42,236 nucleotides of DNA from a virus. Position 1 is the stretch's first letter. The number at the start of each line of letters is the position of its first letter. Shown here piece after piece: positions 26,558 through 37,543 of this stretch. Below the pieces are notes generated by a model that was not told the DNA's origin, made no database searches, and saw only the letters and a program-made list of their open reading frames with translations. The DNA is taken from UHGV virus genome UHGV-0797471. One strand, 5' to 3'. The position numbers were made by a program, and so were the translations under genes.

Positions 26558-28819
26558 TTACAATCCAGATTGCAAAATTTCGCAAGATTTATATATTTCG
26601 CGCAATTCTTCGTTGCTGAAATCGTTATTTTTTACAAGAATCCAAATCCTATATACAAACCCGTCAATTTTTACGCGTACGGGTTCCCGCTTTGTTCTTT
26701 CTTTCAAAATGCGAGTAATATGCTTCTGGTTAATTTCTACATCCATTCCTGCTTCTGCCAGTATTGCGTTAACAATTTGTTGATAAGTCATTGCTGGCAC
26801 AGGCGGATTATCCAGGATTTCAATAAGAGCAGCCTCCACATCGCTCTTATTGCTTTCAATCATCAGAAGGCGTTCTTTCGTCTCGGGGGCGCGCTGCCAG
26901 TTAAAGCGAGACAGGTCAACGCCCATCAGATACCAGTACACCTGGGCGATAAAGTCGCTGTCGCTTAGCGCACCGTACAGGCTGGCGTAATGCTCTTCAG
27001 TTGCGGCGAAGTCAGGGCCCCCCAGCACAGCGATACGTCGGTCTTCCTCTGGCAGCGCCAGCGCATCAAAGTGGTTGGTGTAGAACAGAAAGCCGGTGTA
27101 TATATCCATCGTTTTTTTGCTGCCATATTTGCGGTTCACTTCAAACCGTGGTTCTGTCAGCACGTCACGGATCTTATCGTTCACCTCATACCGCTTATCA
27201 TTTTCGCGCACCTCGTCAATGGTGCATAGAAGCGTATTGTACAGATAGTCATGGAACTGGTTATCGCACAGGATCTTCATGCGAGTACGAGCACAGTTCC
27301 ACGGACCAAGCACGCGCTCCATTAACTGGCTGACCCATCCTCTGCCCGTACCATGTGCGGAAGCCACATGCAGAATAGAAATCGGGCATCGACGCTCCGG
27401 ACGCTGAACCATCCACCCCAGACGGGCGATGAAAAACTCGCGCTGCCAGGCATCAGGTACCAGATACGCCATATGATTAAGGAACGTGGACACCTTACTT
27501 GTATCCGCTGTACGTGGATGCTCAGGCATATAAAATTCGTTTATCTCAAACCGCCCGTCGAAACGCTCGATAATACGTCCCGCACCGGGCTTATAGCCTG
27601 TCGTCTCAGCAATCTTCTTATGCCGATGCTCTATCCACCGTTTGGTTGCGGGAGTTGGTTGCCCTTTCCCTTCTGGCGGGAACTGGTAAGGCGCCATCAG
27701 GTTTTTGAACGACTTCATATCCATCATGCACTGATATGGCGGTCGGCTAAGATCACATACCTGGTCACCCTCGATGACGTAGATAAAGCGTTCCAGAAAA
27801 TGAGCTGTCATATCTGTATTAATATCGGTAAATTCAGGCTTATCGCCATCTTCAACCACCGTGAGATCTTCGAACAGGGATTGCGTATAGCCGTAGCCTT
27901 CCAGCCAGTCGGCATCAGTAAGCCCCGCATCGGTGTTGTGCATGCTTTTAAAATGTCCCTGTTCAAATCCCCCCGTCCCTTTTGGGAAATACTTAATGGA
28001 TGTTTCGCTGCAACCGTTGCTGTATTCTGACTCATCCCGAAACGGTTTCAGATTGCGGGAACCATCAGAGCTGACTGACAGAGTCCACCCGTTCGCGTCA
28101 AGCCAGTCGGCGACATCATCTGTCGCGGAAGGATCAACACAGGAAAGATCACGCTGACGTCCTGCACCTGCGGTATAGCTGTCTTTCACGGGTAAGTTAT
28201 CCGCCAGACGCTGCCACAGGCTTTCGAGCTGTTCAGATGTAATTTTCAGAGGTTCGCCGGGCAGACCGCAGTCCCACTGAATACGTTCGCCTGCCGGATG
28301 GGTACCACAAGCCACAAACTGCTGGCCCTTAGCGAGCAGCTCTATTTGTTTGTTTTCGCCTTCCAGGCGGTGACCACGTTTACGGTAGTCGCCATCAACA
28401 GCAATCAGGTACAGGCATTTATGACTGTCAGCCCGCCAGCGACGTGGCGGAAGTTCCCCCAGGCATGACAGGATAATATTGCGTACGATCTCCTGCATCC
28501 CGGCGTCATTGATATCGCAGTCCAGAGCCACCACCCCGTCGCCAGTACGAACGCAAATACCGTAATCGGGTTCGTTCGACCACCGGGCAAAATCGTTTTC
28601 CGTAACAACATAGTTAGCCCAGTCGGGGATACCAACAACCTTACGTTGGCCATTGTAGCGACTGGGGGTTTTGCCGAAATTATGAGACAGCTTGCTATTA
28701 GGCGACAGTTCTGCACAGGGATTGGACACCACAGGTAAAAGCCTGTCTGTCATCCCCAACACCAGATCGAAGTGGAACCACTCATCGGGCGTAGCTCCCC
28801 ATGGTTTGTTATCAGACAT
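26558..28819 (-). CDS. Replication protein: primase (Prim-Pol-like N-terminus) with D5/P4-alpha-like NTPase C-terminus
   Basis: 753 aa; N-terminal VALDCDINDAG-type acidic motif; C-terminal degenerate P-loop HVASAHGTGRGW; first gene after cro in the early operon. Confidence 0.6.
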   Translation of the reverse strand: MSDNKPWGATPDEWFHFDLVLGMTDRLLPVVSNPCAELSPNSKLSHNFGKTPSRYNGQRKVVGIPDWANYVVTENDFARWSNEPDYGICVRTGDGVVALDCDINDAGMQEIVRNIILSCLGELPPRRWRADSHKCLYLIAVDGDYRKRGHRLEGENKQIELLAKGQQFVACGTHPAGERIQWDCGLPGEPLKITSEQLESLWQRLADNLPVKDSYTAGAGRQRDLSCVDPSATDDVADWLDANGWTLSVSSDGSRNLKPFRDESEYSNGCSETSIKYFPKGTGGFEQGHFKSMHNTDAGLTDADWLEGYGYTQSLFEDLTVVEDGDKPEFTDINTDMTAHFLERFIYVIEGDQVCDLSRPPYQCMMDMKSFKNLMAPYQFPPEGKGQPTPATKRWIEHRHKKIAETTGYKPGAGRIIERFDGRFEINEFYMPEHPRTADTSKVSTFLNHMAYLVPDAWQREFFIARLGWMVQRPERRCPISILHVASAHGTGRGWVSQLMERVLGPWNCARTRMKILCDNQFHDYLYNTLLCTIDEVRENDKRYEVNDKIRDVLTEPRFEVNRKYGSKKTMDIYTGFLFYTNHFDALALPEEDRRIAVLGGPDFAATEEHYASLYGALSDSDFIAQVYWYLMGVDLSRFNWQRAPETKERLLMIESNKSDVEAALIEILDNPPVPAMTYQQIVNAILAEAGMDVEINQKHITRILKERTKREPVRVKIDGFVYRIWILVKNNDFSNEELREIYKSCEILQSGL

Positions 28820-28822
28820 GGG

Positions 28823-29023
28823 TTACGCCTTTTGTCTAGCTGTCACTTCCTGAAAAAGCTTTTCTATCGCACGTACTGTAGAAAAGCGAGGGTCAGAATG
28901 AACCCCGGTGAGAAGCCGACTAATAGAAGACTGCTTCACGCCTGCAATTTCGGCAATTTGGTTTTGGGTATACCCTGAATCAATCAAGCTTTTGACCATC
29001 TCTTGTGGTGTTAGTCCGGACAT
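28823..29023 (-). CDS. cro: Cro-like HTH transcriptional regulator
   Basis: 66 aa; helix-turn-helix TQNQIAEIAGVKQSSISRLLTG; divergent from CI repressor; GGAG Shine-Dalgarno. Confidence 0.65.
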   Translation of the reverse strand: MSGLTPQEMVKSLIDSGYTQNQIAEIAGVKQSSISRLLTGVHSDPRFSTVRAIEKLFQEVTARQKA

Positions 29024-29164
29024 ATTTAAGTCTCCACTTTCGTCTATAGCGCAAATTTATACGAAAACGGATTATTCAGCAATACGGCAATTCTATATCA
29101 TCCTGGATTAAAATATCCGATAACGCATAATCACCGTCCCTGTATACAACATGGATGAATCCAA
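29024..29164. promoter_or_regulatory. Immunity switch region: divergent cro and cI promoters with candidate operators
   Basis: Minus-strand TTGCTG-16nt-ATAAAT candidate cro promoter; repeated ATACGAAAACGG / ATAACGCATAAT motifs, with related copies downstream of cI near 29940-29975. Confidence 0.5.
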
Positions 29165-29839
29165 ATGATTGATACTACCGATATCCTTTCTCAAAACATC
29201 AAGTACCTGATGGACAAAGCCAAGATAAGCTCGATAACTGAGCTGGCACGTCGGTTACAACTGAACCAACCAACGCTACACAGGCTGGTATCAGGAGAGG
29301 TGAAAGATCCGAAATACGCAACGTTAAAGCAGATCGCCGACTACTTCCACGTGTCACCAATAGACCTGGCAGAAAGGAGCCTTCAAGAAATGGAGAAAGA
29401 GGACGCGACGGGTATAAAAACGTATATTTCTCTTAGGTTTAATAAAGTACCTGTTTTGGGAAACACTCAGCTAGGCGTTGGAGGACTTTGGAGCGACACC
29501 CAATATTCAGTAGGTAGCAGTGATGGTTTCATATACTGGCCGACAAAGGATGAAGATGCATACGCCCTGAAATGTGTTGGTGATTCAATGATGCCTAGAA
29601 TCAAAGAGGGTGAGTTCGTAATCGTCGAACCCAACCACGACTACACTCCTGGTGATGAAGTACTTGTGGTTACCCGGGACGGTGAGGTCATGGTTAAAAC
29701 CTTCTTGTTCGAACGCGATGGCCTGTTCCATCTAATGTCTGTAAATGAAGATCATCCACCAGTCAGAGTACCACGCGAAAACATTGAAAAAATCCATTAC
29801 GTGGCGGGGATCGCCAAATCCGCGCTACGCATGTACTAA
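29165..29839 (+). CDS. cI: CI-type prophage repressor (N-terminal HTH, C-terminal S24 LexA-like autopeptidase)
   Basis: HTH ITELARRLQLNQPTLHRLVSG; S24 catalytic motifs GDSMMPRI (Ser) and VMVKTF (Lys); divergent from cro. Confidence 0.85.
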   Translation: MIDTTDILSQNIKYLMDKAKISSITELARRLQLNQPTLHRLVSGEVKDPKYATLKQIADYFHVSPIDLAERSLQEMEKEDATGIKTYISLRFNKVPVLGNTQLGVGGLWSDTQYSVGSSDGFIYWPTKDEDAYALKCVGDSMMPRIKEGEFVIVEPNHDYTPGDEVLVVTRDGEVMVKTFLFERDGLFHLMSVNEDHPPVRVPRENIEKIHYVAGIAKSALRMY

Positions 29840-29870
29840 CCTTTACAGTCTGATAACTTACTTCTGATCA

Positions 29871-29900
29871 AACCGCTCTCCACAAGGGCGGTTTTCTTAT
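29871..29900 (+). terminator. Intrinsic terminator after cI
   Basis: CCGCTCT-CCACA-AGGGCGG stem-loop followed by TTTTCTTATTT. Confidence 0.5.
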
Positions 29901-29923
29901 TTGCAAAATAATTCATTTTCGTA

Positions 29924-29952
29924 TTGACGCAAAATCCCATAACGCATATAAA
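29924..29952 (+). promoter_or_regulatory. Near-consensus sigma-70 promoter (TTGACG-17nt-TATAAA) firing rightward into a non-coding region
   Basis: Hexamers at 29924-29929 and 29947-29952 with exactly 17-nt spacing; no plus-strand ORF downstream before 31009. Confidence 0.5.
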
Positions 29953-30135
29953 TACGATACCGCATAATTAATGCGTTTTTTAATACCAGCTCTTTAACAA
30001 ACTGAACCGCGTGACAGGTAAGCCGCAGTACTCCTGGCAAAATGAAATGGCACCCGATGGGATCGAGGTAAGCGCCGAGTCCGTATGCGTACGGTAAGCG
30101 TAGAGGACAACACCGCGACGAACTGATAAGTCACG

Positions 30136-30163
30136 CAAGTTGAAACGCCCCGACGATGGGGCG
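30136..30163 (-). terminator. Possible terminator hairpin downstream of the zinc-ribbon gene
   Basis: CGCCCC-GACGAT-GGGGCG hairpin; only a weak U-tract on either strand. Confidence 0.3.
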
Positions 30164-30214
30164 CTTAGTTCCTTTAACTCTGGGTGGCCGGAAGGGTACC
30201 CATGCTTAAAGAAA

Positions 30215-30784
30215 TTACTGGTTGTAAGGATCGTAATCCGTGATTGCCTTCCCCGGATTTTCATCTTCAGCAGGCAGTCTGGCCTCTAAAGCATTTCGGT
30301 TGAACAGATAGGAAGCCCTACAGTGCGAACAAACCATATTAACGGCTCGCCCAAGGCCTGGCTTAATAACCAGACCTTCCGCTTGCAATATAGATTTTCT
30401 CTTTTGCTCGTAGCAATTGGGACAAATATAAACCGGAGATTGGTCAGTATCTGCAGAAAGCTTGCTGCGATAGACCAGAGTACCCCGCATAGGCTGGTAA
30501 AGTTCATAGCTCGCCGCTTCAGCGGCCCAGTTCTCTTGCTTTACTTTCTCATTTTCCAGTTCAACAATTTTCTCCTTAGCCGCAATCAGCAGCTCCTGAA
30601 GCGACATTTGCTGCATCTGAACATCCATTAGCTTATCGAGTAAGGTGTGCGTCTTCTCTTTAACTGCATAGTCGACAGTCAGATTCTGAATCTCTCTTGC
30701 TGCTCCAACCGCGCCTTTAATTGCTCCTCCCACGCCGGATAACGATTCAGTTATCCGGGAAAGAATTCCTTTTTCTTCAGACAT
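30215..30784 (-). CDS. Coiled-coil plus Cys4 zinc-ribbon protein, unknown function (candidate antirepressor/regulatory or exclusion protein)
   Basis: 189 aa; N-terminal heptad-rich region; C-terminal CPNC...x25...CSHC; transcribed toward cI from the divergent promoter region. Confidence 0.5.
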   Translation of the reverse strand: MSEEKGILSRITESLSGVGGAIKGAVGAAREIQNLTVDYAVKEKTHTLLDKLMDVQMQQMSLQELLIAAKEKIVELENEKVKQENWAAEAASYELYQPMRGTLVYRSKLSADTDQSPVYICPNCYEQKRKSILQAEGLVIKPGLGRAVNMVCSHCRASYLFNRNALEARLPAEDENPGKAITDYDPYNQ

Positions 30785-30920
30785 ATCTAATCTCTCTCAA
30801 ACTGTAGGGGTGAAGAGATATTAGACGATTTCTCACTGTAGGGGTACAAGGAGAACCACCTCGCCTGATGTGGTTAAAAGCAGGCACTCGATGATATCCA
30901 TGTAATTGCTGTGTGTAGTC

Positions 30921-30950
30921 TTTGCCCGCCGCAAATGACGGGCTTTTTTA
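30921..30950 (+). terminator. Intrinsic terminator upstream of the rightward operon
   Basis: GCCCG-CCGCAAATGA-CGGGC followed by TTTTTT. Confidence 0.5.
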
Positions 30951-31008
30951 TGTCTGAAAGCGCACTCGCAACAGCGCGCTCCCCGATATGAAAAAAGGAA
31001 TACAACCG

Positions 31009-31158
31009 ATGAAACCTGAACACCTCTATCGACTGACGGGGCGCGATGTTCTCCGTTATCGCCGTAAAAACTTCGATTTGATGACCGGTCTGGCCGTTGC
31101 CACTGCGCTCGGTCTGATCATCACTTTCATTCTCCTTGTAGCGAGGACCACAGTATGA
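31009..31158 (+). CDS. Small membrane protein (49 aa), first gene of rightward operon
   Basis: AAGGA Shine-Dalgarno 9 nt upstream; [49 protein letters not shown] has one C-terminal TM helix; stop overlaps the next start (ATGA). Below the 60-aa cutoff of the ORF track. Confidence 0.4.
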   Translation: MKPEHLYRLTGRDVLRYRRKNFDLMTGLAVATALGLIITFILLVARTTV

Positions 31159-32057
31159 GTTTAGAAACCAGTCTCGAACTTAATAATCAACTTCTGGCAC
31201 AACATAATGCGCTGCTTGAACGTCTTATCCGCACAATGGCATCAGGTATTGTTATGCATCCTGACACGATTTCACGAGTGCAGGAATGTCGGGATACAGC
31301 AACTGAAACTGAAAATATGTCAGCGGCAATGACACTGGATGATCTGGAGTTCAGCGACGTTATCGCACTGGCTGGTTTCTACCCAGTAGCCACCCCTATC
31401 ACAGAAGACATGCTGCAACGTGCTGTTGCCTACCGTGATGCTGAAGGCGATAAACGAGTAGTTCAGATTGATGCTCTCGACAGCGCATTGCAGGGCGTCA
31501 AACGAGCCAGGGCGCTGCTTAAACCTGCTCTCCTGGACCTGTCCCGTAACATCCTTAAGTTCTGGGACGACCTGCCAACCATCGGCGAGCGACGTGCTTT
31601 TGCCGAGCAGCTACTTGATGCACCTGCGGATGGGCGTGATGAAGTTAAGCCGAAAAAGGCCAGTAACAAAGATGGAGAACGCACGGGGCCGTTTTACGTC
31701 AAAAATGTATCCGGCACAGCAGCCAGTGAACTCCACACCTTACGCAAGTTGAACGAGATGCTGAAAAAAGGCCATATCGAGACCAACCGTGTTGAGTACC
31801 TTCAGCTGCAGGAAGAATTTGCACGCAGAGACACAGCAAATTCCAGCCAGAATAATGACGCCAAAGATGACCATACAATTGATTTCGCGGCACTACGCAA
31901 ACAAGCTGAAGGGTTGATCCTCCAGTTAGCAAAAGGGGGTTACCGGGCAGAAGCTATTGCAATTCTGGAAAAACAGGGAGCCAGGAAACTTGGTGAAGTA
32001 ACGGATGAAAATCTCGCTGAAGTAATCACCCTGGCTGAAAAAGCACTGGAGGGTTAA
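31155..32057 (+). CDS. Hypothetical acidic early protein
   Basis: 300 aa; translationally coupled to flanking genes; no motif recognised. Confidence 0.5.
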
Positions 32058-32059
32058 TC

Positions 32060-33361
32060 ATGCCAGACGTTCATGCACAACTTTCTCCATCATCAGCGCA
32101 TCGATGGATGCGCTGCCCAGGAAGTCTGGCGCTGGAGGCCACACAACCGGATAAAGAAACAACTTTTGCAATCGAGGGCACTGCAGCGCACGCGCTTGCT
32201 GAAAAAGTTCTACGAAACAGGCAAAGCCACCCGGAACACTACGCCGGATGCAATGTTTCTATGTTTCTCGGCTCATACCCCCTTCGCGAAAATCCTGATG
32301 ATACATCTGGCCCACAGGTGGATGATGAAATGGTCGAAGCCGTTGGCCGGTATGTTGATACGGTCTGGACTCTTGCACAGAATAATGAACTATTGGTTGA
32401 ACAACGTGTTGATTTCTCACATATAACGGGTGTGGAAGAATCTTTCGGAACTGCCGACGGCATAATCATCGCTGGTAGCGAATTACAAATCCACGACCTG
32501 AAATATGGCAAAGGCGTCCGCATTGATGCAGAACAAAATGAGCAACTACAACTGTATGCTCTGGGTGCTCTCGAACAATTCAGCATGCTGTATGACTTTG
32601 AGACTGTAAGATTATTTATTCACCAGCCAAGGCTCAACCACGTTTCAGAATGGTCGTTAACCGTGCAGGAACTTCAGTCTTTCGGTAAACGAGCACAGGA
32701 GGCCGCAACCAGTGCGATCCTTGTTCTCAATATTGCTGAATGCGAAGGCATTGAGACACTACCGCTGGAAAACTTCATACCTGGAGAAAAGCAGTGCCGC
32801 TTCTGTAAAGCAAAAGCTATTTGCACTGCCCAGAAAATGCAGCATTTACAAACAGCGGCCAGCGACTTTGAAGATCTGACAAAGCCTGTCAGCGAAATAA
32901 TCACCAATGCCAGCGCACGTGTACCTCTGTTAACCATTGAGCAGCTTGCGGAGATCTATAGCCAGGCCGACTTTATTGAGTCCTGGCTAAAGGCAGTACG
33001 GGACCGGGTTCACAATGAACTCAATGCCGGACATCCGGTACCGGGGTTTAAACTGGTAACAGGAAAACAAGGTAACCGGGCCTGGAGTGATGAAGAGGCA
33101 GCTCGCGCACTTCTGAAGGACCAGTTCAGGTACAAAACTGAAGAAGTATTCGACTTTAAACTTATTAGTCCCACAAAAGCCGAAAAACTTATCAAAAAGG
33201 CCAGTCCACGCCGTTGGTCAAAAGTCGAGGCACTGATAACACGAGCTGATGGTAAACCAACCGTCGTTCCCGAGTCAGACCCACGCCCCGCACTCAATAT
33301 CAACCCTGTAAATGATTTCGACGACGTATCCGACGATACGCTAACCGCAGACCTCATCTGA
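32060..33361 (+). CDS. PD-(D/E)XK nuclease, DUF2800 / Cas4-RecB-like
   Basis: N-terminal [15 protein letters not shown] signature of DUF2800; C-terminal Cys cluster [10 protein letters not shown]; upstream of DUF2815 and PolA as in the known phage module. Confidence 0.7.
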
Positions 33362-33376
33362 TTTAAGGAAATACCC

Positions 33377-33925
33377 ATGAAACTGAAGCTGAACAATGTT
33401 CGTCTGGCCTTCCCGTCTCTGTTTGAAGCTAAAACTGTAAACGGCGAAGGCGATCCGCGTTTCTCCGCAGTATTTTTAATGTCTCCCAAACACCCACAAC
33501 TGGAAGAAATCCGTAAAGCTATGAAGCAGGTAGCGAAGGAAAAATGGGGAGAGAAGTGGGAGCCCATTTATAACCAGCTGGAGAAAAAACTCAATCTGTG
33601 CCTGCATGATGGTGATGAAAAAGCAGAGTATGAAGGCTTCCCCGGCAATTTCTTCCTGAATGCTGCTAACAAAGCGCGCCCAGCTGTTCTTGATCGCGAT
33701 CGTTCGCCACTTATTCAGGCTGACGGACGTCCTTATGCAGGGTGCTATGTAAACGCCGTTATCGATATCTGGGCACAGGACAATAATTTCGGTAAACGCA
33801 TTAATGCCTCACTCGGCGGAGTCCAGTTCCTGCGAGACGGCGATGCATTCGCTGGCGGCGGAGTGGCAAGCGCTGACGATTTCGACGATATCAGCGAAGG
33901 TGCTGATGCTGAAGCACTAATTTAA
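33377..33925 (+). CDS. DUF2815-type phage ssDNA-binding protein
   Basis: MKLKLNNVRLAFPSLFEAK... N-terminus typical of DUF2815; acidic C-terminal tail DDFDDISEGADAEALI. Confidence 0.65.
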   Translation: MKLKLNNVRLAFPSLFEAKTVNGEGDPRFSAVFLMSPKHPQLEEIRKAMKQVAKEKWGEKWEPIYNQLEKKLNLCLHDGDEKAEYEGFPGNFFLNAANKARPAVLDRDRSPLIQADGRPYAGCYVNAVIDIWAQDNNFGKRINASLGGVQFLRDGDAFAGGGVASADDFDDISEGADAEALI

Positions 33926-33977
33926 CCCTACTTCATAGACGCCCGGTTAAACACCGGGCTACTGATTAGGCGTATAA

Positions 33978-34607
33978 TCACTCAGGAATCTTAATCTTTC
34001 TCAATTCTTTATTTAGTTCACAGATCTTTTTCTTAGACGGGAAAGTATCATACATCCAAAAACCAACAGTCTCTAAAACTATTATCATAACCATATACAC
34101 AAGATAATTTAAAAGGCCTTCATTTTGCCCTATGGAAATAATGCAGATAATAGAAAAAAGGGTAAACAGCACAAAACACAGAAAGGAAAACAGACGACTA
34201 ATAATAAATAAAAAACCTGAAAAATCAACATTAATAAAAAACACTCCGTTATCTTTCTCTATATAATTCTGAAGCTTAATCAACTGATTTATATACTGTC
34301 TTTTTTCTAATCTATTGCAAATGTAAATAACATCTCTTCGGTTATAAGAGGATTGCAATTTCAGCGCATCACGAATAATTTTATCATTTATTCTTTTTTC
34401 TATGGCTTTCTTATCCTCCTTATCCAGATAACGTTCATACTTAATTAAATATAAAATTAACTTCTTGACATATTTAGGCTCTTTATACTTATAATTAAAA
34501 ATGATCTTTCTTATCCAGACTCCCATAACAATCAAACATGAAAAAATATATCCAGCTATTTTCTCCAGATGCTCTGTATGGTCAATCAAGTATTGGATCA
34601 TATGCAT
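33978..34607 (-). CDS. AT-rich multi-pass membrane protein (moron; candidate superinfection-exclusion / abortive-infection protein)
   Basis: 209 aa with N- and C-terminal hydrophobic helices and a Lys-rich middle; strongly AT-rich; antisense to the replication operon between the SSB and polymerase genes. Confidence 0.5.
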   Translation of the reverse strand: MHMIQYLIDHTEHLEKIAGYIFSCLIVMGVWIRKIIFNYKYKEPKYVKKLILYLIKYERYLDKEDKKAIEKRINDKIIRDALKLQSSYNRRDVIYICNRLEKRQYINQLIKLQNYIEKDNGVFFINVDFSGFLFIISRLFSFLCFVLFTLFSIICIISIGQNEGLLNYLVYMVMIIVLETVGFWMYDTFPSKKKICELNKELRKIKIPE

Positions 34608-34653
34608 AATTAATCTTTTAATCAGTTAATAGAATAAAAACCTAGGTAAACAC

Positions 34654-36717
34654 ATGTCCAATATACTATGGGGCGACCTGGAAACCTATTGCGAAATCCC
34701 TATTACGAACGGTACCCATGCGTATGCCGAAGGCGTTGAAGTGATGCTTTTCGCATGGGCTATCAACGACGGGCCAGTAAACGTGTGGGATATCACTGCC
34801 GGTGGTGGTATTCCACACGGCTTATACGAAGCAATCGCAGACCCTGAAACCCTGCTTTATTTCCATAACTCTCACTTCGACCGCACCGTTCTGCGTTATG
34901 CAATGCCGCGACTGGCACCGCCAGTCGAACGTTGGCGCGACACGATGGTGCAGGCGCTGGCGCACGGTCTCCCGGGGTCTCTGGGGGAACTCTGCGAAGT
35001 ACTAGGCGTCCCGCAAGACAAAGCGAAGGACAAAGAAGGTAAAGCGCTGATCCAGCTGTTCTGTAAGCCACGTCCGAAAAACAGCAAACTGCGTCGGGCC
35101 ACCAGTAAAACCCATCCGGAAGAATGGCGGCGCTTTGTTGCTTACGCCGGACTGGATATCGAAGCAATGCGTGAAGTCTATAAACGTCTGCCGAAGTGGA
35201 ATTATCAGGGGACAGAGCTGGCGCTCTGGCATCGTGATCAGCAGATCAACGACCGGGGCGTCTGCATGGACATGCAACTCGCGCGCGCTGCGATCGAAGC
35301 GGTAGACCAGGAGCAAAAGCGCCTGGCAAAGCGTACACAGGAAATGACTGATGGCGAAGTGCAGGCAGCCACACAACGGGACGCGTTGATTAAGCACATC
35401 GTTGAATCCTACGGTGTGGAGCTACCAGACATGCAACGCAGTACCCTGGAACGTCGTATGGCCGACCCCGATTTATCATCTGCCGTGAAAGAACTGCTGG
35501 CTATCCGCCTGCAAGCCAGTACTACCAGCACCAGTAAATACAAGGCACTGATGAAAGGCGTAAGCCACGACGGGCGCTTACGCGGTACGCTACAGTTCTG
35601 CGGGGCGTCACGTACCGGTCGTTGGGCCGGACGGCTATTCCAGCCCCAGAACCTTCCCCGCCCTTCACTAAAACAGGAACAAATAGACGAAGGCATCGAA
35701 GCACTGAAAGCCGGATGTGCAGACCTGCTGTTTGACAATATCATGGAACTAACCAGTTCAGCGTTACGTGGCTGCATTATCGCGCCAACAGGCAAAAAAC
35801 TAGTGGTAAGTGACTTGTCAAACATTGAAGGCCGTATGCTGGCATGGCTGGCGGGAGAAGAATGGAAACTGAATGCATTCAGAGAGTATGACGCTGGAAC
35901 GGGTCCGGACTTATATAAACTGGCGTATGCAAAAGCTTTCGATATTGCACCAGATGATGTTGATAAACACATGCGTCAGATCGGTAAAGTCATGGAACTC
36001 GGTCTGGGTTATGGAGGTGGTGTATCGGCTTTCATCACTTTTGCTCTGGTTTACGGTCTCGATCTCGACGAGCTGGCGAACGCCGCACTGCCAAACATTC
36101 CCCGCGATGTTATCCGCGAGGCAAAAAGCTGGTACGACGAATCGGTTAAGCGTAAGTCGACCTTTGGCCTGTCCGAGCGTGTATTCATCGCATGTGACTC
36201 GCTCAAGCGCCTGTGGCGCAGGGCGCACCCGGCGACCTGCGATTTCTGGTACGAGCTGGAGCGCACTGTCCGCACAGCAATCGCCACACCGCAAAAAACA
36301 TTGTATTGCGGCTATCTTAAAATCCGACGTGATGGCGCGTGGCTGCGCATACAGCTACCATCCGGACGCGCTGTATGCTACCCGTCTCCGGTTATCGAAC
36401 AAGGGAATATCACCTACATGGGTGTTAACTCTTATTCGCGTAAATGGCAACGACTCAAAACCTACGGCGGAAAGCTGGTGGAGAACGTCACCCAGGCGGC
36501 CGCCCGCGACGTTCTAGCCAGAAACATGCCGCTGATCGAGGGTGCCGGTTACAGCATTGTGCTAACGGTACACGACGAGGTGATCACCGAAGCACCAGAC
36601 ACAGAAGATTTCAACGATAAAGCGCTTTCCGCGCTTCTCTCCACTAACCCCGAATGGGCACCCGATATTCCGCTGAACGCTGGCGGCTTTGAGGCGTACC
36701 ACTACAAAAAAGATTGA
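34654..36717 (+). CDS. Family A DNA polymerase (Pol I-like with 3'-5' exonuclease domain)
   Basis: N-terminal exo motif WGDLETY; polymerase motifs [16 protein letters not shown] and [11 protein letters not shown]; 687 aa. Confidence 0.85.
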
Positions 36718-36781
36718 TATAACTCACCTTATCGAGCTATGGCGACATGCTGAATTCGAGTAAATTAAAGGTACAATACTT

Positions 36782-37543
36782 ATGCAGGAACTAACTGAAA
36801 TGCCGATCAACTATCCATACCCGAGAGAATCTTTTCCTGACTTTTTGAGGGAGTGTGGGTTCACCAATTTTTCCCACGAACAGCGTGAGACTTATGACTG
36901 CTATCGTTTAACGAATGGCGTAATTGTTAACCTTTACACCACCCGGACCATTCAGTTTCAAGGGAACCCTCAAGAACGTCCCAATGTTGAAACTGCAATA
37001 ATGTCCCATTTAGGAACGCCCCCCACGGCAACACCACTAGCCGTAGAACAGCCATCTGAGCTTCCCAAAAAGATATTCATTGTTCACGGCCATGACCATA
37101 CTGCAAAGGAACAACTTGAGCTAATCCTTCATAAACTTGGATTACCAGACCATTTCATTTTGCAGAATACGGGAGGGACTGGACTCACCATTATTGAAGA
37201 GCTTGAACGTGAAATTGGGCAAGGACAAACTGCTACTCGTTTCGGGATTGTTCTTTTGACACCTGATGATATGGGATACTCAAAGCGCGCCGGTGAAGCA
37301 GAAATCCAACCCCGCGCAAGACAGAACGTTGTACTCGAGATGGGTATGCTTCTTTCGTCCTTAGGGCGCAGCAATGTAGCAATCCTTCAGAAACAGCACC
37401 TAGAACAGCCTTCTGATGCTAACGGGATTTTGTATCTGAATTTCAACGACCATGTACGTGAAACAGTTCCTCGTCTAGTGCAACGGTTACAAAATTCTGG
37501 TTTCGAATTTACACAAGCTCAAATAGCTAACGCTTCCTCGTAA
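36782..37543 (+). CDS. TIR-like domain protein (COG4271 / PF10137-type nucleotide-binding TIR-like), with 95-aa N-terminal extension
   Basis: KIFIVHGHD...GIVLLTPDDMGY...ARQNVVLEMGMLLSSLGRSNVAIL matches the hallmark motifs of this family as recalled; AT-richer than flanks; followed by its own terminator. Confidence 0.6.
   Translation: MQELTEMPINYPYPRESFPDFLRECGFTNFSHEQRETYDCYRLTNGVIVNLYTTRTIQFQGNPQERPNVETAIMSHLGTPPTATPLAVEQPSELPKKIFIVHGHDHTAKEQLELILHKLGLPDHFILQNTGGTGLTIIEELEREIGQGQTATRFGIVLLTPDDMGYSKRAGEAEIQPRARQNVVLEMGMLLSSLGRSNVAILQKQHLEQPSDANGILYLNFNDHVRETVPRLVQRLQNSGFEFTQAQIANASS

What the first reader, a model, noticed from the sequence alone, without database searches (positions are those of the whole stretch)
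29924..30170. Strong promoter driving a structured non-coding region next to cI, convergent on the zinc-ribbon gene
Seen in sequence: TTGACG-17nt-TATAAA on the plus strand just downstream of the cI terminator. It is followed by about 200 bp with no credible ORF that contains a long-range inverted repeat (GCGTGAC at 30011-30017 vs GTCACGC at 30131-30137), three copies of GGTAAGC, a CCGTA-TGCG-TACGG hairpin and a GC-rich terminal hairpin (30146-30163). The next plus-strand terminator with a good T-run is at 30921-30950.

Inference: either a discrete small RNA of about 200 nt, or a long antisense transcript covering the zinc-ribbon gene, analogous to lambda OOP or P22 sar antisense control.
Basis: partly seen in the sequence, partly recalled or inferred. 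Interest (0 to 1): 0.55.

Follow-up and report, generated by a model that had tools for sequence, protein, structure and literature searches.

The report
Phage early-operon antitermination leader RNA
A repressor-controlled early promoter of a temperate E. coli phage is followed by a conserved, non-coding leader of about 175 bases (a ribosomal-type boxA plus a folded RNA domain) that sits exactly where sister phages carry the HK022 "put" antiterminator, so it most likely lets RNA polymerase read through the terminators that stand in front of the phage's replication genes.

Summary
TTGACG-17-TATAAA (29924-29952), the inverted repeat, three GGTAAGC, both hairpins and the lack of an ORF are all present; two coordinates are off by 1-2 nt.

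The promoter carries the operator motif also found between cro and cI, so it is a PL analogue. A perfect rrn-type boxA (GCTCTTTAACAA, 29989-30000) follows it. And 29989-30163 is a sharply bounded, portable module, over 85% identical behind at least 8 unrelated promoter/immunity types and before several unrelated flanks. Indels of 1, 2 and 26 nt exclude coding.

Downstream lie a reverse-oriented hkaP-like moron, an RprA-like intrinsic terminator, then exonuclease, SSB and DNA polymerase genes.

Among 54 sister-phage loci, 28 carry this module, 22 carry an HK022 putL homologue in the same slot (same promoter, same flank), and none carries both.

Best explanation (about 0.65): a cis-acting, nut/put-like processive antitermination leader in which a large folded domain occupies the boxB position. 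No N-like protein was found. It matches nothing in Rfam and no paper found by sequence.

The sRNA and antisense readings are secondary at most. It is a new variant of a known kind.

The parts
29870..29894 (+). Intrinsic terminator of the cI-like repressor gene (29165-29839).
   Evidence: 10-bp stem followed by a T-rich tail.
29924..29952 (+). Early-left (PL-like) promoter: -35 TTGACG at 29924-29929, 17-nt spacer, -10 TATAAA at 29947-29952. Predicted transcription start about 29959.
   Evidence: Sequence. The hexamers are conserved in YeP4 and L009 (TTGACC ... TATAAA) while the spacer differs. The start site is inferred, not measured.
29939..29981 (+). Putative repressor operators: ATAACGCATAT (29939-29949), ATACCGCATAA (29957-29967) and the palindrome CGCATAATTAATGCG (29961-29975) followed by T6.
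   Evidence: the motif ATAMCGCATAW has exactly three perfect copies in the 42-kb window. Two are here and the third is at 29120, between cro and cI. None of 100 shuffles reached the total number of matches found. One search also flags 29961-29975 as terminator-like.
29989..30000 (+). boxA, GCTCTTTAACAA: 12 of 12 identical to the E. coli rrn boxA-spacer (u)GCUCUUUAACAA(uuua).
   Evidence: It is the only exact copy in the window. The rrn sequence comes from PMC2724277, Table 1. It is nearly invariant in the 59 type A variants of alignment A2 (GCTCTTTAACAA in most; CTTCTTTAACAA, GTTCTTTAACAA and GCTTTTTAACAA in the L003-like, L039/L059/L088 and L032 variants, with TTTAACAA invariant), and is GCTCTTTAACAA in A' and A2.
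30009..30015 (+). P1 helix, 5' arm (GCGUGAC). It starts 8 nt after boxA, the position where lambda nut sites have boxB.
   Evidence: the pair 30010-30135 is CG in 49 sequences, AU in 7, UA in 2 and UG in 1. In the A' relatives P1 is GCACUGG/UCAGUGC, a different sequence forming the same helix.
30017..30052 (+). Conserved 5' core, GGUAAGCC...CUCCUGGCAAAAUGAAAUGGC. It contains the first GGTAAGC.
   Evidence: CCTGGCAAAAYGAAATRGC is shared by types A, A' and A2. Its pairing is unresolved.
30050..30073 (+). Hairpin GCACCCGAU-GGG-AUCGAGGUAAGC, which contains the second GGTAAGC.
   Evidence: always paired, but it never varies within type A, partly because the search core lies here. In A' and A2 other hairpins occupy the same place.
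30081..30094 (+). Hairpin CCGUA-UGCG-UACGG, with a UNCG-type loop.
   Evidence: L023 carries a compensatory A-U to G-C change and L080 a U.G pair. The hairpin is removed by a 26-nt deletion in L053 and L088.
30093..30108 (+). Third GGTAAGC (30093-30099) and the invariant GUAGAGGAC (30100-30108).
   Evidence: GTAGAGGAC is also kept in the A2 variants.
30130..30136 (+). P1 helix, 3' arm (GUCACGC).
30146..30163 (+). Terminal hairpin CGCCCC-GAYGAU-GGGGCG, which marks the 3' boundary of the portable module. On the minus strand it is followed by UUUCAACUU and may also end the hkaP-like transcript.
   Evidence: C-G changes to U.G in 9 variants. That change is tolerated only on the plus-strand RNA. 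The boundary is seen.
30215..30784 (-). hkaP-like zinc-ribbon moron, convergent with the leader transcript. It is not part of the conserved module.
   Evidence: 30% identity, E = 4e-16, to HkaP of lambda-like phage HK630, where it also lies reversed inside the PL operon. PHROG 1244.
30840..30953 (+). RprA-like element with an intrinsic terminator (30921-30950). It is the last barrier before the early genes.
   Evidence: RF00034, 50.2 bits, below the gathering score of 70, E = 1e-4. The core TGCTGTGTGTAGTCTTTGCCC lies downstream on the same strand in 68 of 89 type A loci. It is also present in put-type loci.
31009..37543 (+). Early-left operon that the leader must serve: 49-aa protein, 300-aa protein, DUF2800 exonuclease (32060-33361), Gp2.5-like SSB (33377-33925), family A DNA polymerase (34654-36717) and a TIR-domain protein (36782-37543).

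Best explanation
The region is the head of the phage's repressor-controlled early-left (PL-type) transcript, and 29989-30163 is a cis-acting processive antitermination signal.

After the prophage repressor is lost, RNA polymerase starts near 29959 and transcribes a consensus boxA. boxA is the binding site of host NusB-NusE. Eight nucleotides later, where lambda nut sites have boxB, the polymerase transcribes a folded domain of about 130 nt closed by helix P1, followed by a terminal hairpin.

The nascent RNA, with Nus factors and possibly a partner not yet identified, would convert the polymerase into a termination-resistant form. That form can cross about 1 kb of untranslated RNA antisense to the hkaP-like moron, which is a target for Rho. 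It can also cross the RprA-like intrinsic terminator at 30921-30950 and so reach the exonuclease, SSB and DNA polymerase genes.

Shown: the promoter and operator motifs, the boxA, the portability and conservation of the module, its non-coding nature, helix P1, the barriers downstream, and mutually exclusive occupancy of the slot by this module or by a putL homologue.

Inferred: that transcription starts there, that Nus factors bind, and that the folded domain confers terminator read-through.
For: 1. PL analogue. The promoter lies just after cI, points away from it, and carries two perfect copies of a motif whose only other perfect copy lies between cro and cI.

2. boxA. It matches rrn boxA at 12 of 12 positions and occurs once in 42 kb.

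3. Portable unit. The block 29989-30163 recurs at 85-100% identity behind at least 8 unrelated promoter/operator types, each with its -10 element about 20-35 nt upstream, and in front of several unrelated flanks.

4. Non-coding, plus-strand RNA. Indels of 1, 2 and 26 nt exclude coding, and the G.U changes are tolerated only on the plus strand.

5. Structure. P1 covaries within type A (CG, AU, UA, UG) and is kept with a different sequence in the Yersinia A' relatives.

6. Need for read-through. In L009 the RprA-like terminator follows the module, and its U-tract ends about 15 nt before the ATG of the first early gene. In L196 a UUCG-hairpin terminator sits about 25 nt before that ATG. Neither leaves room for another promoter. 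In the window the essential replication genes lie behind the same terminator.

7. Same slot as put. Of 54 sister-phage loci, 28 carry the boxA module and 22 carry one HK022 putL homologue instead. None carries both. The putL match is 90% over 42 nt (E = 5e-11) and about 80% over 80 nt. It shows a compensatory change in stem I and keeps the AACCAT element. My numbering of the HK022 sequence agrees with the residues named in PMC9378689.

8. Precise swap. L201 (put) and L027 (module) share about 92% identical promoter DNA up to the transcript start and the same downstream flank. put is an experimentally proven antiterminator RNA that needs no protein factor (PMC9378689).

9. Second swap. In Rac-like lambdoid prophages the module is exchanged, between identical flanks, for another boxA-linked RNA (type B). 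The fold of type B is strongly supported: 97% of cells paired against 25-41% in the slid controls, with 14 compensatory pairs.
Against: There is no transcript, 5'-end or read-through measurement.

The -10 hexamer lacks the usually conserved final T.

Folding energy is no better than that of shuffled sequence.

Type A sequences are so alike that only 2 of 31 proposed pairs show compensatory change. The inner fold is therefore unresolved.

boxA with Nus factors alone (the rrn type) is known to act on Rho-dependent terminators. Suppression of intrinsic terminators in lambda needs N and boxB (PMC2724277). No N-like protein was found in type A loci, so the agent that would defeat the intrinsic terminator is unknown.

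Sharing a slot shows replaceability, not identical biochemistry.

Two variants lack 26 nt of the domain, so part of it is dispensable, or those copies are defective.
Confidence: 0.65

Rival explanations
1. A discrete, trans-acting small RNA. The module, alone or together with the RprA-like 3' end, is released as a stable RNA of about 200-300 nt that acts on host or phage targets as a base-pairing regulator, sponge or protein decoy. On this view boxA is incidental.
For: The module is a self-contained, portable cassette closed by P1 and ending in a stable hairpin.

In L009-type loci a transcript from the promoter that stops at the next terminator would be an RNA of about 300 nt. Its 3' end would be the conserved RprA core plus a hairpin and U-tract of the type that binds Hfq.

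A, A', A2 and B cassettes are swapped like accessory genes.
Against: In the window there is no terminator at the end of the module; the sequence after the hairpin is GCUUAGUUCC.

The RprA-like part is separated from the module by inserts of 0-750 nt and is also present in put-type loci that lack the module. The two are therefore independent.

No conserved complementary target was found in the phage. The one 14-nt match includes a position that varies in the family.

The module's alternative in the same slot is put, a cis-acting element.
Confidence: 0.15
2. One reading: the promoter exists to make a long antisense transcript that silences the convergent zinc-ribbon (hkaP-like) gene, in the manner of lambda OOP or P22 sar.
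For: Plus-strand transcription from 29959 necessarily crosses 30215-30784 antisense. The terminal hairpin can serve as the minus-strand terminator of that gene.
Against: Most loci with the module have no convergent gene after it (L005, L009, L196 and others). The hkaP-like gene also sits reversed inside N-dependent PL operons of lambda-like phages, so it is an inserted moron. The promoter is operator-controlled and heads an 8-kb operon.
Confidence: 0.05
3. A signal-sensing attenuator, riboswitch-like or protein-binding. The folded domain binds a metabolite or protein and decides locally whether polymerase stops at the next terminator.
For: The architecture is a multi-helix domain closed by one helix with highly conserved junction strands. 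That is typical of aptamers. Terminators often follow closely.
Against: The downstream terminators are of unrelated sequence, lie 15-750 nt away, and sit outside the conserved block. No alternative pairing with a terminator can therefore be conserved. boxA and the swap with put both point to a processive, terminator-independent mechanism. No Rfam aptamer matched.
Confidence: 0.08
4. A conventional nut site for a phage antiterminator protein not yet recognised. The folded domain is only the binding platform, an oversized boxB, for an N-like or other phage protein.
For: The type B cassette lies directly upstream of an N-like gene in Salmonella P22-like phages. The match to Pfam N_peptide is E = 1.6e-4, below threshold, and the C-terminus resembles that of P22 gp24 as I recall it. 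The order boxA, then a spacer, then a structure is the nut layout.
Against: An iterative search (jackhmmer) with lambda N, P22 gp24 and the Salmonella protein found nothing in the 4 kb after any type A module. In the window the first plus-strand ORF is 800 nt away, behind the terminator. A PL-encoded factor could therefore not start the process. There is a single site per genome, with no nutR counterpart.
Confidence: 0.07

Closest known systems
Lambda-type nut sites (nutL: boxA, spacer, boxB, acting with protein N and NusA/B/E/G)
   Same: It lies just downstream of the repressor-controlled early-left promoter. It has a boxA followed after about 8 nt by a structured element. It serves an operon that contains terminators and reversed morons such as hkaP.
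   Different: The boxA is the full rrn consensus, not the weaker lambda form. The boxB position is occupied by a multi-helix domain of about 130 nt instead of a 15-nt hairpin. No N-family gene was found. There is only one site per genome.
HK022 put RNAs (putL and putR), cis-acting antiterminator RNAs that need no protein factor
   Same: It occupies exactly the same genomic slot. Sister phages with the same promoter, the same downstream flank and the same RprA-like terminator carry a putL homologue instead, and the two elements are mutually exclusive. It is a single, self-contained, portable RNA element.
   Different: There is no sequence similarity. It is about 175 nt against about 70 nt. It starts at about +31 and not at +2/+3. 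It contains boxA, which put lacks. It is not a two-stem V-shaped fold. Binding to the beta' zinc-binding domain is untested.
E. coli rrn antitermination leader (boxB-boxA-boxC with Nus factors, SuhB and S4) and other boxA-only elements
   Same: The boxA-spacer core GCUCUUUAACAA is identical. The task of protecting long untranslated RNA from Rho is plausibly the same.
   Different: In rrn, boxA alone suffices against Rho and there is no large conserved domain downstream. Here an intrinsic terminator must also be passed.
Type B boxA-linked leader RNA
   Same: The layout and position are the same: boxA, 8-10 nt, then a domain closed by P1. It replaces type A between identical flanks (L095 against L003). 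The two share the short motifs AUGGCA and GCGGCG..GACAA just before the 3' arm of P1.
   Different: A covariance model of type B does not detect type A beyond boxA. Type B has a GNRA hairpin and no terminal hairpin. It is rare in E. coli (2 of 5,426 genomes).

Membership tests
Lambda-type nut site | A boxA sequence (CGCUCUUA or UGCUCUUUA) in the early transcript. | tested here: met
   GCTCTTTAACAA at 29989-30000 is the only exact copy in the window. It is identical to the rrn boxA-spacer in PMC2724277.
Lambda-type nut site | A boxB hairpin of about 15 nt with a GNRA-like pentaloop, a few nucleotides after boxA. | tested here: not met
   Eight nucleotides after boxA begins the 5' arm of P1, which closes a domain of about 130 nt. 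No 5-bp stem with a pentaloop lies there.
Lambda-type nut site | An N-family arginine-rich antiterminator protein encoded by the phage, normally as the first PL gene. | tested here: not met
Pfam and NCBIfam scans of the window's early proteins gave no N match. Sensitivity for such short, divergent proteins is low.
Lambda-type nut site | A second site (nutR) in the rightward early operon. | tested here: not met
   There is one boxA and one module per window and per contig. cro and the primase gene are 3 nt apart.
HK022 put RNA | Sequence or structure homology to putL or putR (about 70 nt, two stem-loops, starting at +2/+3 of the transcript, no boxA). | tested here: not met
   Sensitive blastn of the region against the phage collection, which holds HK022 (NC_002166), gave no HK022 hit. 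Short-word blastn of the module against the HK022 PL region gave only chance matches of 11 nt or fewer, whereas the put-type sister leader matched at E = 5e-11. The put features are taken from PMC9378689.
HK022 put RNA | It acts in cis on RNA polymerase through the beta' zinc-binding domain, without protein factors. | not testable with these tools
   This needs in vitro transcription or rpoC (Y75N-type) mutants.
HK022 put RNA | Position between the early promoter and a terminator-containing early operon. | tested here: met
   It is the same slot that putL homologues occupy in 22 sister loci, with mutually exclusive distribution.
rrn-type boxA/Nus antitermination | A consensus boxA that is sufficient on its own, with no further conserved RNA required. 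| tested here: inconclusive
   boxA is consensus. However, 165 nt downstream are co-conserved with it as one unit. Whether they are required cannot be computed.
Any curated Rfam family (sRNAs, riboswitches, ribozymes, leaders) | A covariance-model match. | tested here: not met
   There is no hit at E <= 10 within 29924-30170, using permissive filters. The same holds for type B.
OOP- or sar-type antisense RNA | A short RNA with its own promoter and terminator, overlapping and consistently linked to the target gene. | tested here: not met
   There is no terminator at the end of the module. The convergent gene is absent from most loci that carry the module.
RprA sRNA (downstream element at 30840-30953, not the finding itself) | An Rfam RF00034 match at or above the gathering score. 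| tested here: not met
   The score is 50.2 bits against a gathering score of 70. Only the 3' core and the terminator match; the 5' half is the hkaP promoter region.

The most novel reading that the evidence does not exclude
The boxA-linked folded RNA is a self-sufficient antiterminator that needs no phage protein. That would make it a second class of put-like RNAs. It would be anchored to the elongation complex by NusB-NusE through a consensus boxA, and its domain of about 130 nt would do the job of N plus boxB.

Together with cassettes A', A2 and B it would form an undescribed superfamily of interchangeable 'RNA-N' modules at the head of early operons in temperate enterobacterial phages. The fraction of transcripts that still terminate would be released as an RNA with an RprA-mimicking 3' end.
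Probability: 0.3. Interest if true: 0.8.

Novelty: new variant of a known kind. Interest (0 to 1): 0.62.

Why it matters
Three solutions are known for processive antitermination of phage early and ribosomal transcription:
- protein N acting on boxA and boxB;
- the protein-free put RNA of HK022 and its relatives;
- boxA with Nus factors alone, in ribosomal RNA operons.

The element here combines a ribosomal-grade boxA with a large conserved RNA domain. No N protein is in sight, and sister phages carry put in the same position. If the inferred function is right, it is a fourth design. It also gives a natural set of swaps (put, type A, A', A2, type B) behind the same promoters and in front of the same terminators. 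That would make testable how an RNA can replace N, and whether Nus factors can be harnessed against intrinsic terminators.

There are practical consequences too. About 2% of complete E. coli genomes carry it, and genome annotation places 'hypothetical protein' ORFs over it. It is also a compact, portable candidate part for terminator-proof expression.

Tried and rejected
1. Rfam scan with permissive thresholds over 28500-31500. Nothing matched in the finding; only the RprA-like hit downstream.

2. Thermodynamic test. The minimum free energy is no better than that of shuffled sequence, so folding energy gives no support.

3. Coding hypothesis. This covers the annotated 47-aa minus-strand ORF, a 94-aa minus-strand ORF and a 28-aa plus-strand ORF. 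It is rejected by indels of 1, 2 and 26 nt, by the absence of codon periodicity, and by the unrelated flanks.

4. Known EHEC and EPEC prophage sRNAs (AgvB, and PasA to PasD). The Pas genes lie in the late region, next to Q and the lysis genes. They are unrelated.

5. Target search inside the phage. The only hit is a 14-nt complementarity to the TIR-domain gene, and it includes a position that varies in the family. It is probably chance.

6. GTDB-wide pattern scan. It returned only Citrobacter, Pseudocitrobacter and Trabulsiella copies, all over 85% identical, plus one chance hit. It added no diversity for covariation.

7. Search for an N-like protein. One was found only after type B cassettes in Salmonella P22-like phages.

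8. Homology between types A and B. The type B covariance model finds type A only through boxA (E = 0.3-7). I treat the two as analogous, not as demonstrated homologues.

9. Literature search with four conserved sequence strings from the cassettes. There were no relevant papers.

10. Ideas considered by eye and dropped:
- An RfaH ops-like motif in ACGGTAAGCGTAG, which does not fit in register.
- A CsrA sponge, because GGA is not consistently placed in loops across the types.
- The terminal hairpin as a boxB, because its loop has 6 nt and it lies 146 nt from boxA.
- DNA iterons, because the G.U changes are strand-specific.

11. The inner fold of type A could not be settled. The hairpin has the one compensatory change.
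Full report
**1. What is in the sequence**

The window carries a lambda-like immunity region:
- a cro-like gene at 28823-29023 (minus strand);
- directly downstream of cro on the same strand, a VapE/primase gene at 26558-28819;
- a LexA/S24-type cI gene at 29165-29839 (plus strand);
- the cI terminator hairpin at 29870-29894.

Thirty nucleotides after that terminator lie TTGACG (29924-29929), a 17-nt spacer and TATAAA (29947-29952). The consensus scan skipped the site only because the -10 hexamer lacks a final T. Both hexamers are kept in Yersinia phage YeP4 and in contig L009 while the spacer differs.

- The inverted repeat is GCGTGAC at 30009-30015 and GTCACGC at 30130-30136.
- GGTAAGC occurs at 30017, 30067 and 30093.
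- CCGTA-TGCG-TACGG is at 30081-30094.
- The GC-rich hairpin is at 30146-30163.

**2.

First, the motif ATAMCGCATAW has exactly three perfect copies in 42 kb. Two overlap the promoter (29939 and 29957) and one lies between cro and cI (29120). No shuffle reached the observed total. The promoter is therefore most simply a repressor-controlled early-left promoter, the analogue of lambda PL: downstream of cI and pointing away from it.

Second, 29989-30000 reads GCTCTTTAACAA. This is identical to the E. coli rrn boxA-spacer core, given as CACugcucuuuaacaauuua in PMC2724277 Table 1. It is unique in the window.

**3. The conserved unit**

BLAST against 5,426 complete E. coli genomes found the region in 104 of them. 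The alignment breakpoints fall at window 29989 and about 30163.

A scan of viral contigs with a 19-nt core gave 84 loci and 59 distinct variants. In all of them conservation starts at boxA and ends at the terminal hairpin.
- Upstream there are at least eight unrelated promoter/operator types, each with a -10 element about 20-35 nt before boxA.
- Downstream there are several unrelated flanks.

Copies in Citrobacter, Pseudocitrobacter and Trabulsiella are over 85% identical.

The block is non-coding. Variants differ by indels of 1, 2 and 26 nt, and substitutions show no codon periodicity. The 'hypothetical protein' ORFs that GenBank and RefSeq place here are not conserved.

**4. Is it structured?**

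Folding energy is no better than that of shuffled sequence (z = +0.35 and +0.11). The family is also too uniform for strong covariation. On 59 sequences the proposed structure has 99.7% of cells paired, but only two pairs show compensatory change:
- the P1 pair 30010-30135 (CG in 49, AU in 7, UA in 2, UG in 1);
- one pair in the CCGUA hairpin (A-U to G-C in L023).

The terminal hairpin shows C-G to U.G in nine variants. That change is tolerated only if the plus strand is the functional RNA.

More distant relatives help.
- The Yersinia YeP4 group (A') has the same promoter and boxA and shares CCUGGCAAAACGAAAUAGC. It closes its domain with a different helix, GCACUGG/UCAGUGC, and has its own terminal hairpin.
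- Variant A2 (L191, L196) keeps the 5' core, P1, GUAGAGGAC and the terminal hairpin. Its central hairpins are replaced.

I conclude that P1 and the overall plan are real. The plan is: boxA, 8 nt, a P1-closed multi-hairpin domain, then a terminal hairpin. The inner fold is unresolved.

**5. What the transcript must cross**

Downstream on the plus strand lie a 49-aa protein, a 300-aa protein, a DUF2800 exonuclease, a Gp2.5-like SSB, a family A DNA polymerase and a TIR-domain protein. This is an early replication operon.

Two barriers stand between the promoter and that operon.
- A reversed zinc-ribbon gene at 30215-30784. It is a homologue of HkaP (30% identity, E = 4e-16). In lambda-like HK630 that moron also sits reversed inside the N-dependent PL operon.
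- An RprA-like element with an intrinsic terminator at 30840-30953 (50.2 bits, below the gathering score).

The RprA-like core lies downstream, on the same strand, in 68 of 89 type A loci. In L009 it follows the module directly, and its U-tract ends about 15 nt before the ATG of the first early gene. In L196 a UUCG-hairpin terminator sits about 25 nt before that ATG. There is no room for another promoter in either case. The early genes can therefore be transcribed only by polymerase that started at the boxA-module promoter and ignored a terminator.

**6. The decisive comparison**

I collected sister phages through the 300-aa early protein, taking 9 kb of flank. The 54 loci fall into these classes:
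- 28 carry the boxA module (26 type A and 2 A2);
- 22 carry, on the same strand and in the same place, a single homologue of HK022 putL;
- 4 have neither, and they have too little upstream sequence to judge;
- none carries both.

Identification of the put element rests on the following.
- It matches HK022 at 90% over 42 nt (E = 5e-11) and at about 80% over 80 nt. The HK022 match lies between nun and cI.
- It has a compensatory change in stem I: GUCG..CGAC against GACG..CGUC.
- It keeps the AACCAT -10-like element.
- My numbering of the HK022 sequence reproduces the residues named in the cryo-EM paper PMC9378689: A3, G7, C10, C15, U19, C25 and U28.

L201 (put) and L027 (module) share about 92% identical promoter DNA up to the transcript start. 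They also share the same downstream flank, AGTTCCCTTTGGGGTG. Only the leader element differs. In L201 the put element is followed by the same RprA-like terminator and the same early genes.

put is an experimentally established, protein-independent, processive antiterminator RNA. Its mutually exclusive replacement by the boxA module in an otherwise identical setting is the strongest evidence available here for what the module does.

**7. A wider set of boxA-linked leaders**

In Rac-like lambdoid prophages the type A domain (L003) is exchanged, between identical flanks and after the same boxA, for a different RNA, type B (L095, E. coli AW1.7).

Type B also occurs after the cI genes of Serratia phage BZS1 and of Salmonella P22-like phages, and in 38 viral contigs.

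The fold of type B is strongly supported. 97.2% of cells are paired, against 25-41% when the partners are slid. Fourteen pairs have compensatory changes, including seven of the nine pairs of P1 and a hairpin with a GNRA loop.

Type B is not in Rfam. Its covariance model does not recognise type A beyond boxA. I therefore call the two analogous, not homologous.

Only in the Salmonella phages is type B followed by an N-like protein (Pfam N_peptide, E = 1.6e-4, sub-threshold). No N-like protein was found after any type A module.

**8. Mechanism proposed**

After the repressor is lost, polymerase starts near 29959 and transcribes boxA, which recruits NusB-NusE as in rrn and nut complexes. It then transcribes the folded domain at the position of boxB. 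Together these would convert the elongation complex into a form that resists Rho on the long untranslated antisense stretch and reads through the intrinsic terminator before the replication genes.

The anatomy, the conservation, the barriers and the swap with put are shown. Transcription, Nus binding and read-through are inferred. Whether the domain acts alone, like put, or with an unidentified protein is open.

The main weakness is this. boxA with Nus factors alone is documented against Rho-dependent terminators, whereas intrinsic terminators need N and boxB in lambda (PMC2724277). The agent that would do this here is not identified.

**9. Rivals**
- A trans-acting sRNA remains possible as a by-product (0.15). 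In L009-type loci, terminated transcripts would be about 300 nt with an RprA-like 3' end.
- Antisense control of the hkaP-like gene cannot explain the conservation, because most module-bearing loci lack that gene (0.05).
- A local attenuator or riboswitch is unlikely. The downstream terminators are unrelated in sequence, lie at variable distance and sit outside the conserved block (0.08).
- A classical nut site for an unseen phage protein is a variant of the main explanation (0.07).

**10. Novelty and score**

There is no Rfam family, no hit in well-studied phages and no paper containing the conserved strings.

The class of function is known: nut, put and rrn antitermination. This architecture is not: a consensus boxA fused to a large P1-closed domain, no N protein, and interchangeability with put.

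I rate it a new variant of a known kind, with interest 0.62.

Noticed in passing
window 30840-30953 (+); also L009 7110-7168 and L201 8745-8800: RprA-like element. The 3' core AAUUGCUGUGUGUAGUCUUUGCCC and the terminator hairpin with its U-tract are nearly identical to the Rfam RprA consensus (50.2 bits, gathering score 70). The 5' half is unrelated. It sits immediately before the first early gene in most phages of this family: 68 of 89 type A loci, and put-type loci too. A phage copy of the RprA 3' seed could mimic or compete with host RprA.
   Followed up: partly
L095 2561-2704; L096 2469-2600; L097 2469-2602; L098-L135: 'Type B' RNA. It is a domain of about 115 nt closed by a 9-bp helix. It contains a GNRA (GAGA) hairpin and the invariant strands AUAACUCAG, AUGGCA and GCGGCGGACA, and it is always preceded by a boxA variant. 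It is found after the cI genes of Serratia, Salmonella (P22-like) and E. coli prophages. Covariation is strong (14 compensatory pairs). It is not in Rfam.
   Followed up: partly
L201-L243 (22 loci), e.g. L201 8370-8460: Homologues of HK022 putL, about 80% identical and with a compensatory change in stem I, occur in myovirus-type E. coli prophages unrelated to HK022. There is a single copy (no putR), directly after the early-left promoter.
   Followed up: partly
window 30215-30784 (-) and 30836-30887: The 'zinc-ribbon gene' is a homologue of HkaP of phages HK620 and HK630. Its upstream 52 nt, with the direct repeat ACTGTAGGGGT at 30801 and 30836, are about 90% identical to intergenic DNA in more than 130 lambda-like and P22-like phages. 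This is presumably the promoter or regulatory region of the moron.
   Followed up: partly
window 29961-29981 (+): The palindrome CGCATAATTAATGCG followed by TTTTTT lies at about +3 to +23 of the predicted transcript. It fits the operator motif, and the scan also scores it as an intrinsic terminator. It is specific to this immunity type.
   Followed up: no
window 36782-37543 (+): A TIR-domain protein (Pfam CAP12/Pycsar effector TIR, E = 3e-31) is encoded inside the early replication operon of the phage.
   Followed up: no
window 31009-31158 (+) and homologues in most type A and put-type loci: The conserved 49-aa first early protein has an arginine-rich N-terminus (RLTGRDVLRYRRKNF) followed by a transmembrane helix. 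Its function is unknown (PHROG 11981). It is translationally coupled to an acidic 300-aa protein of unknown function.
   Followed up: no
L003 3180-3240; L095 2745-2800; L114; L121; L008: In Rac-like lambdoid prophages the cassette is followed by a conserved Shine-Dalgarno sequence and a three-codon mini-ORF (ATG AAG MAC TAA, or ATG CAC AAG TAA). A small hairpin GCGG-ACAGA-CCGC comes next. A similar hairpin, GGCGGACAGCAAGUCGCC, precedes boxA.
   Followed up: no
L097 2626-2973 (+), with L101, L109 and L118: Salmonella P22-like phages encode, right after the type B RNA, a basic protein of 103-115 aa. It has an N-family C-terminus (LPNVAVYSGVKTKQ...) and a distinct arginine-rich segment (FKARQYARYASFRANKL). 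It appears to be an unannotated N/gp24 analogue.
   Followed up: partly
L053 and L088 (equivalent to window 30067-30092): Two variants have lost exactly the 26 nt between the second and third GGTAAGC repeats. This removes the CCGUA hairpin. Either that hairpin is dispensable or these copies are defective.
   Followed up: no
window 30037-30050 against 37150-37163: There is a 14-nt perfect complementarity between the leader RNA (GCAAAAUGAAAUGG) and the mRNA of the TIR-domain gene. About 0.07 such matches are expected by chance, but it includes a position that varies in the family.
   Followed up: no
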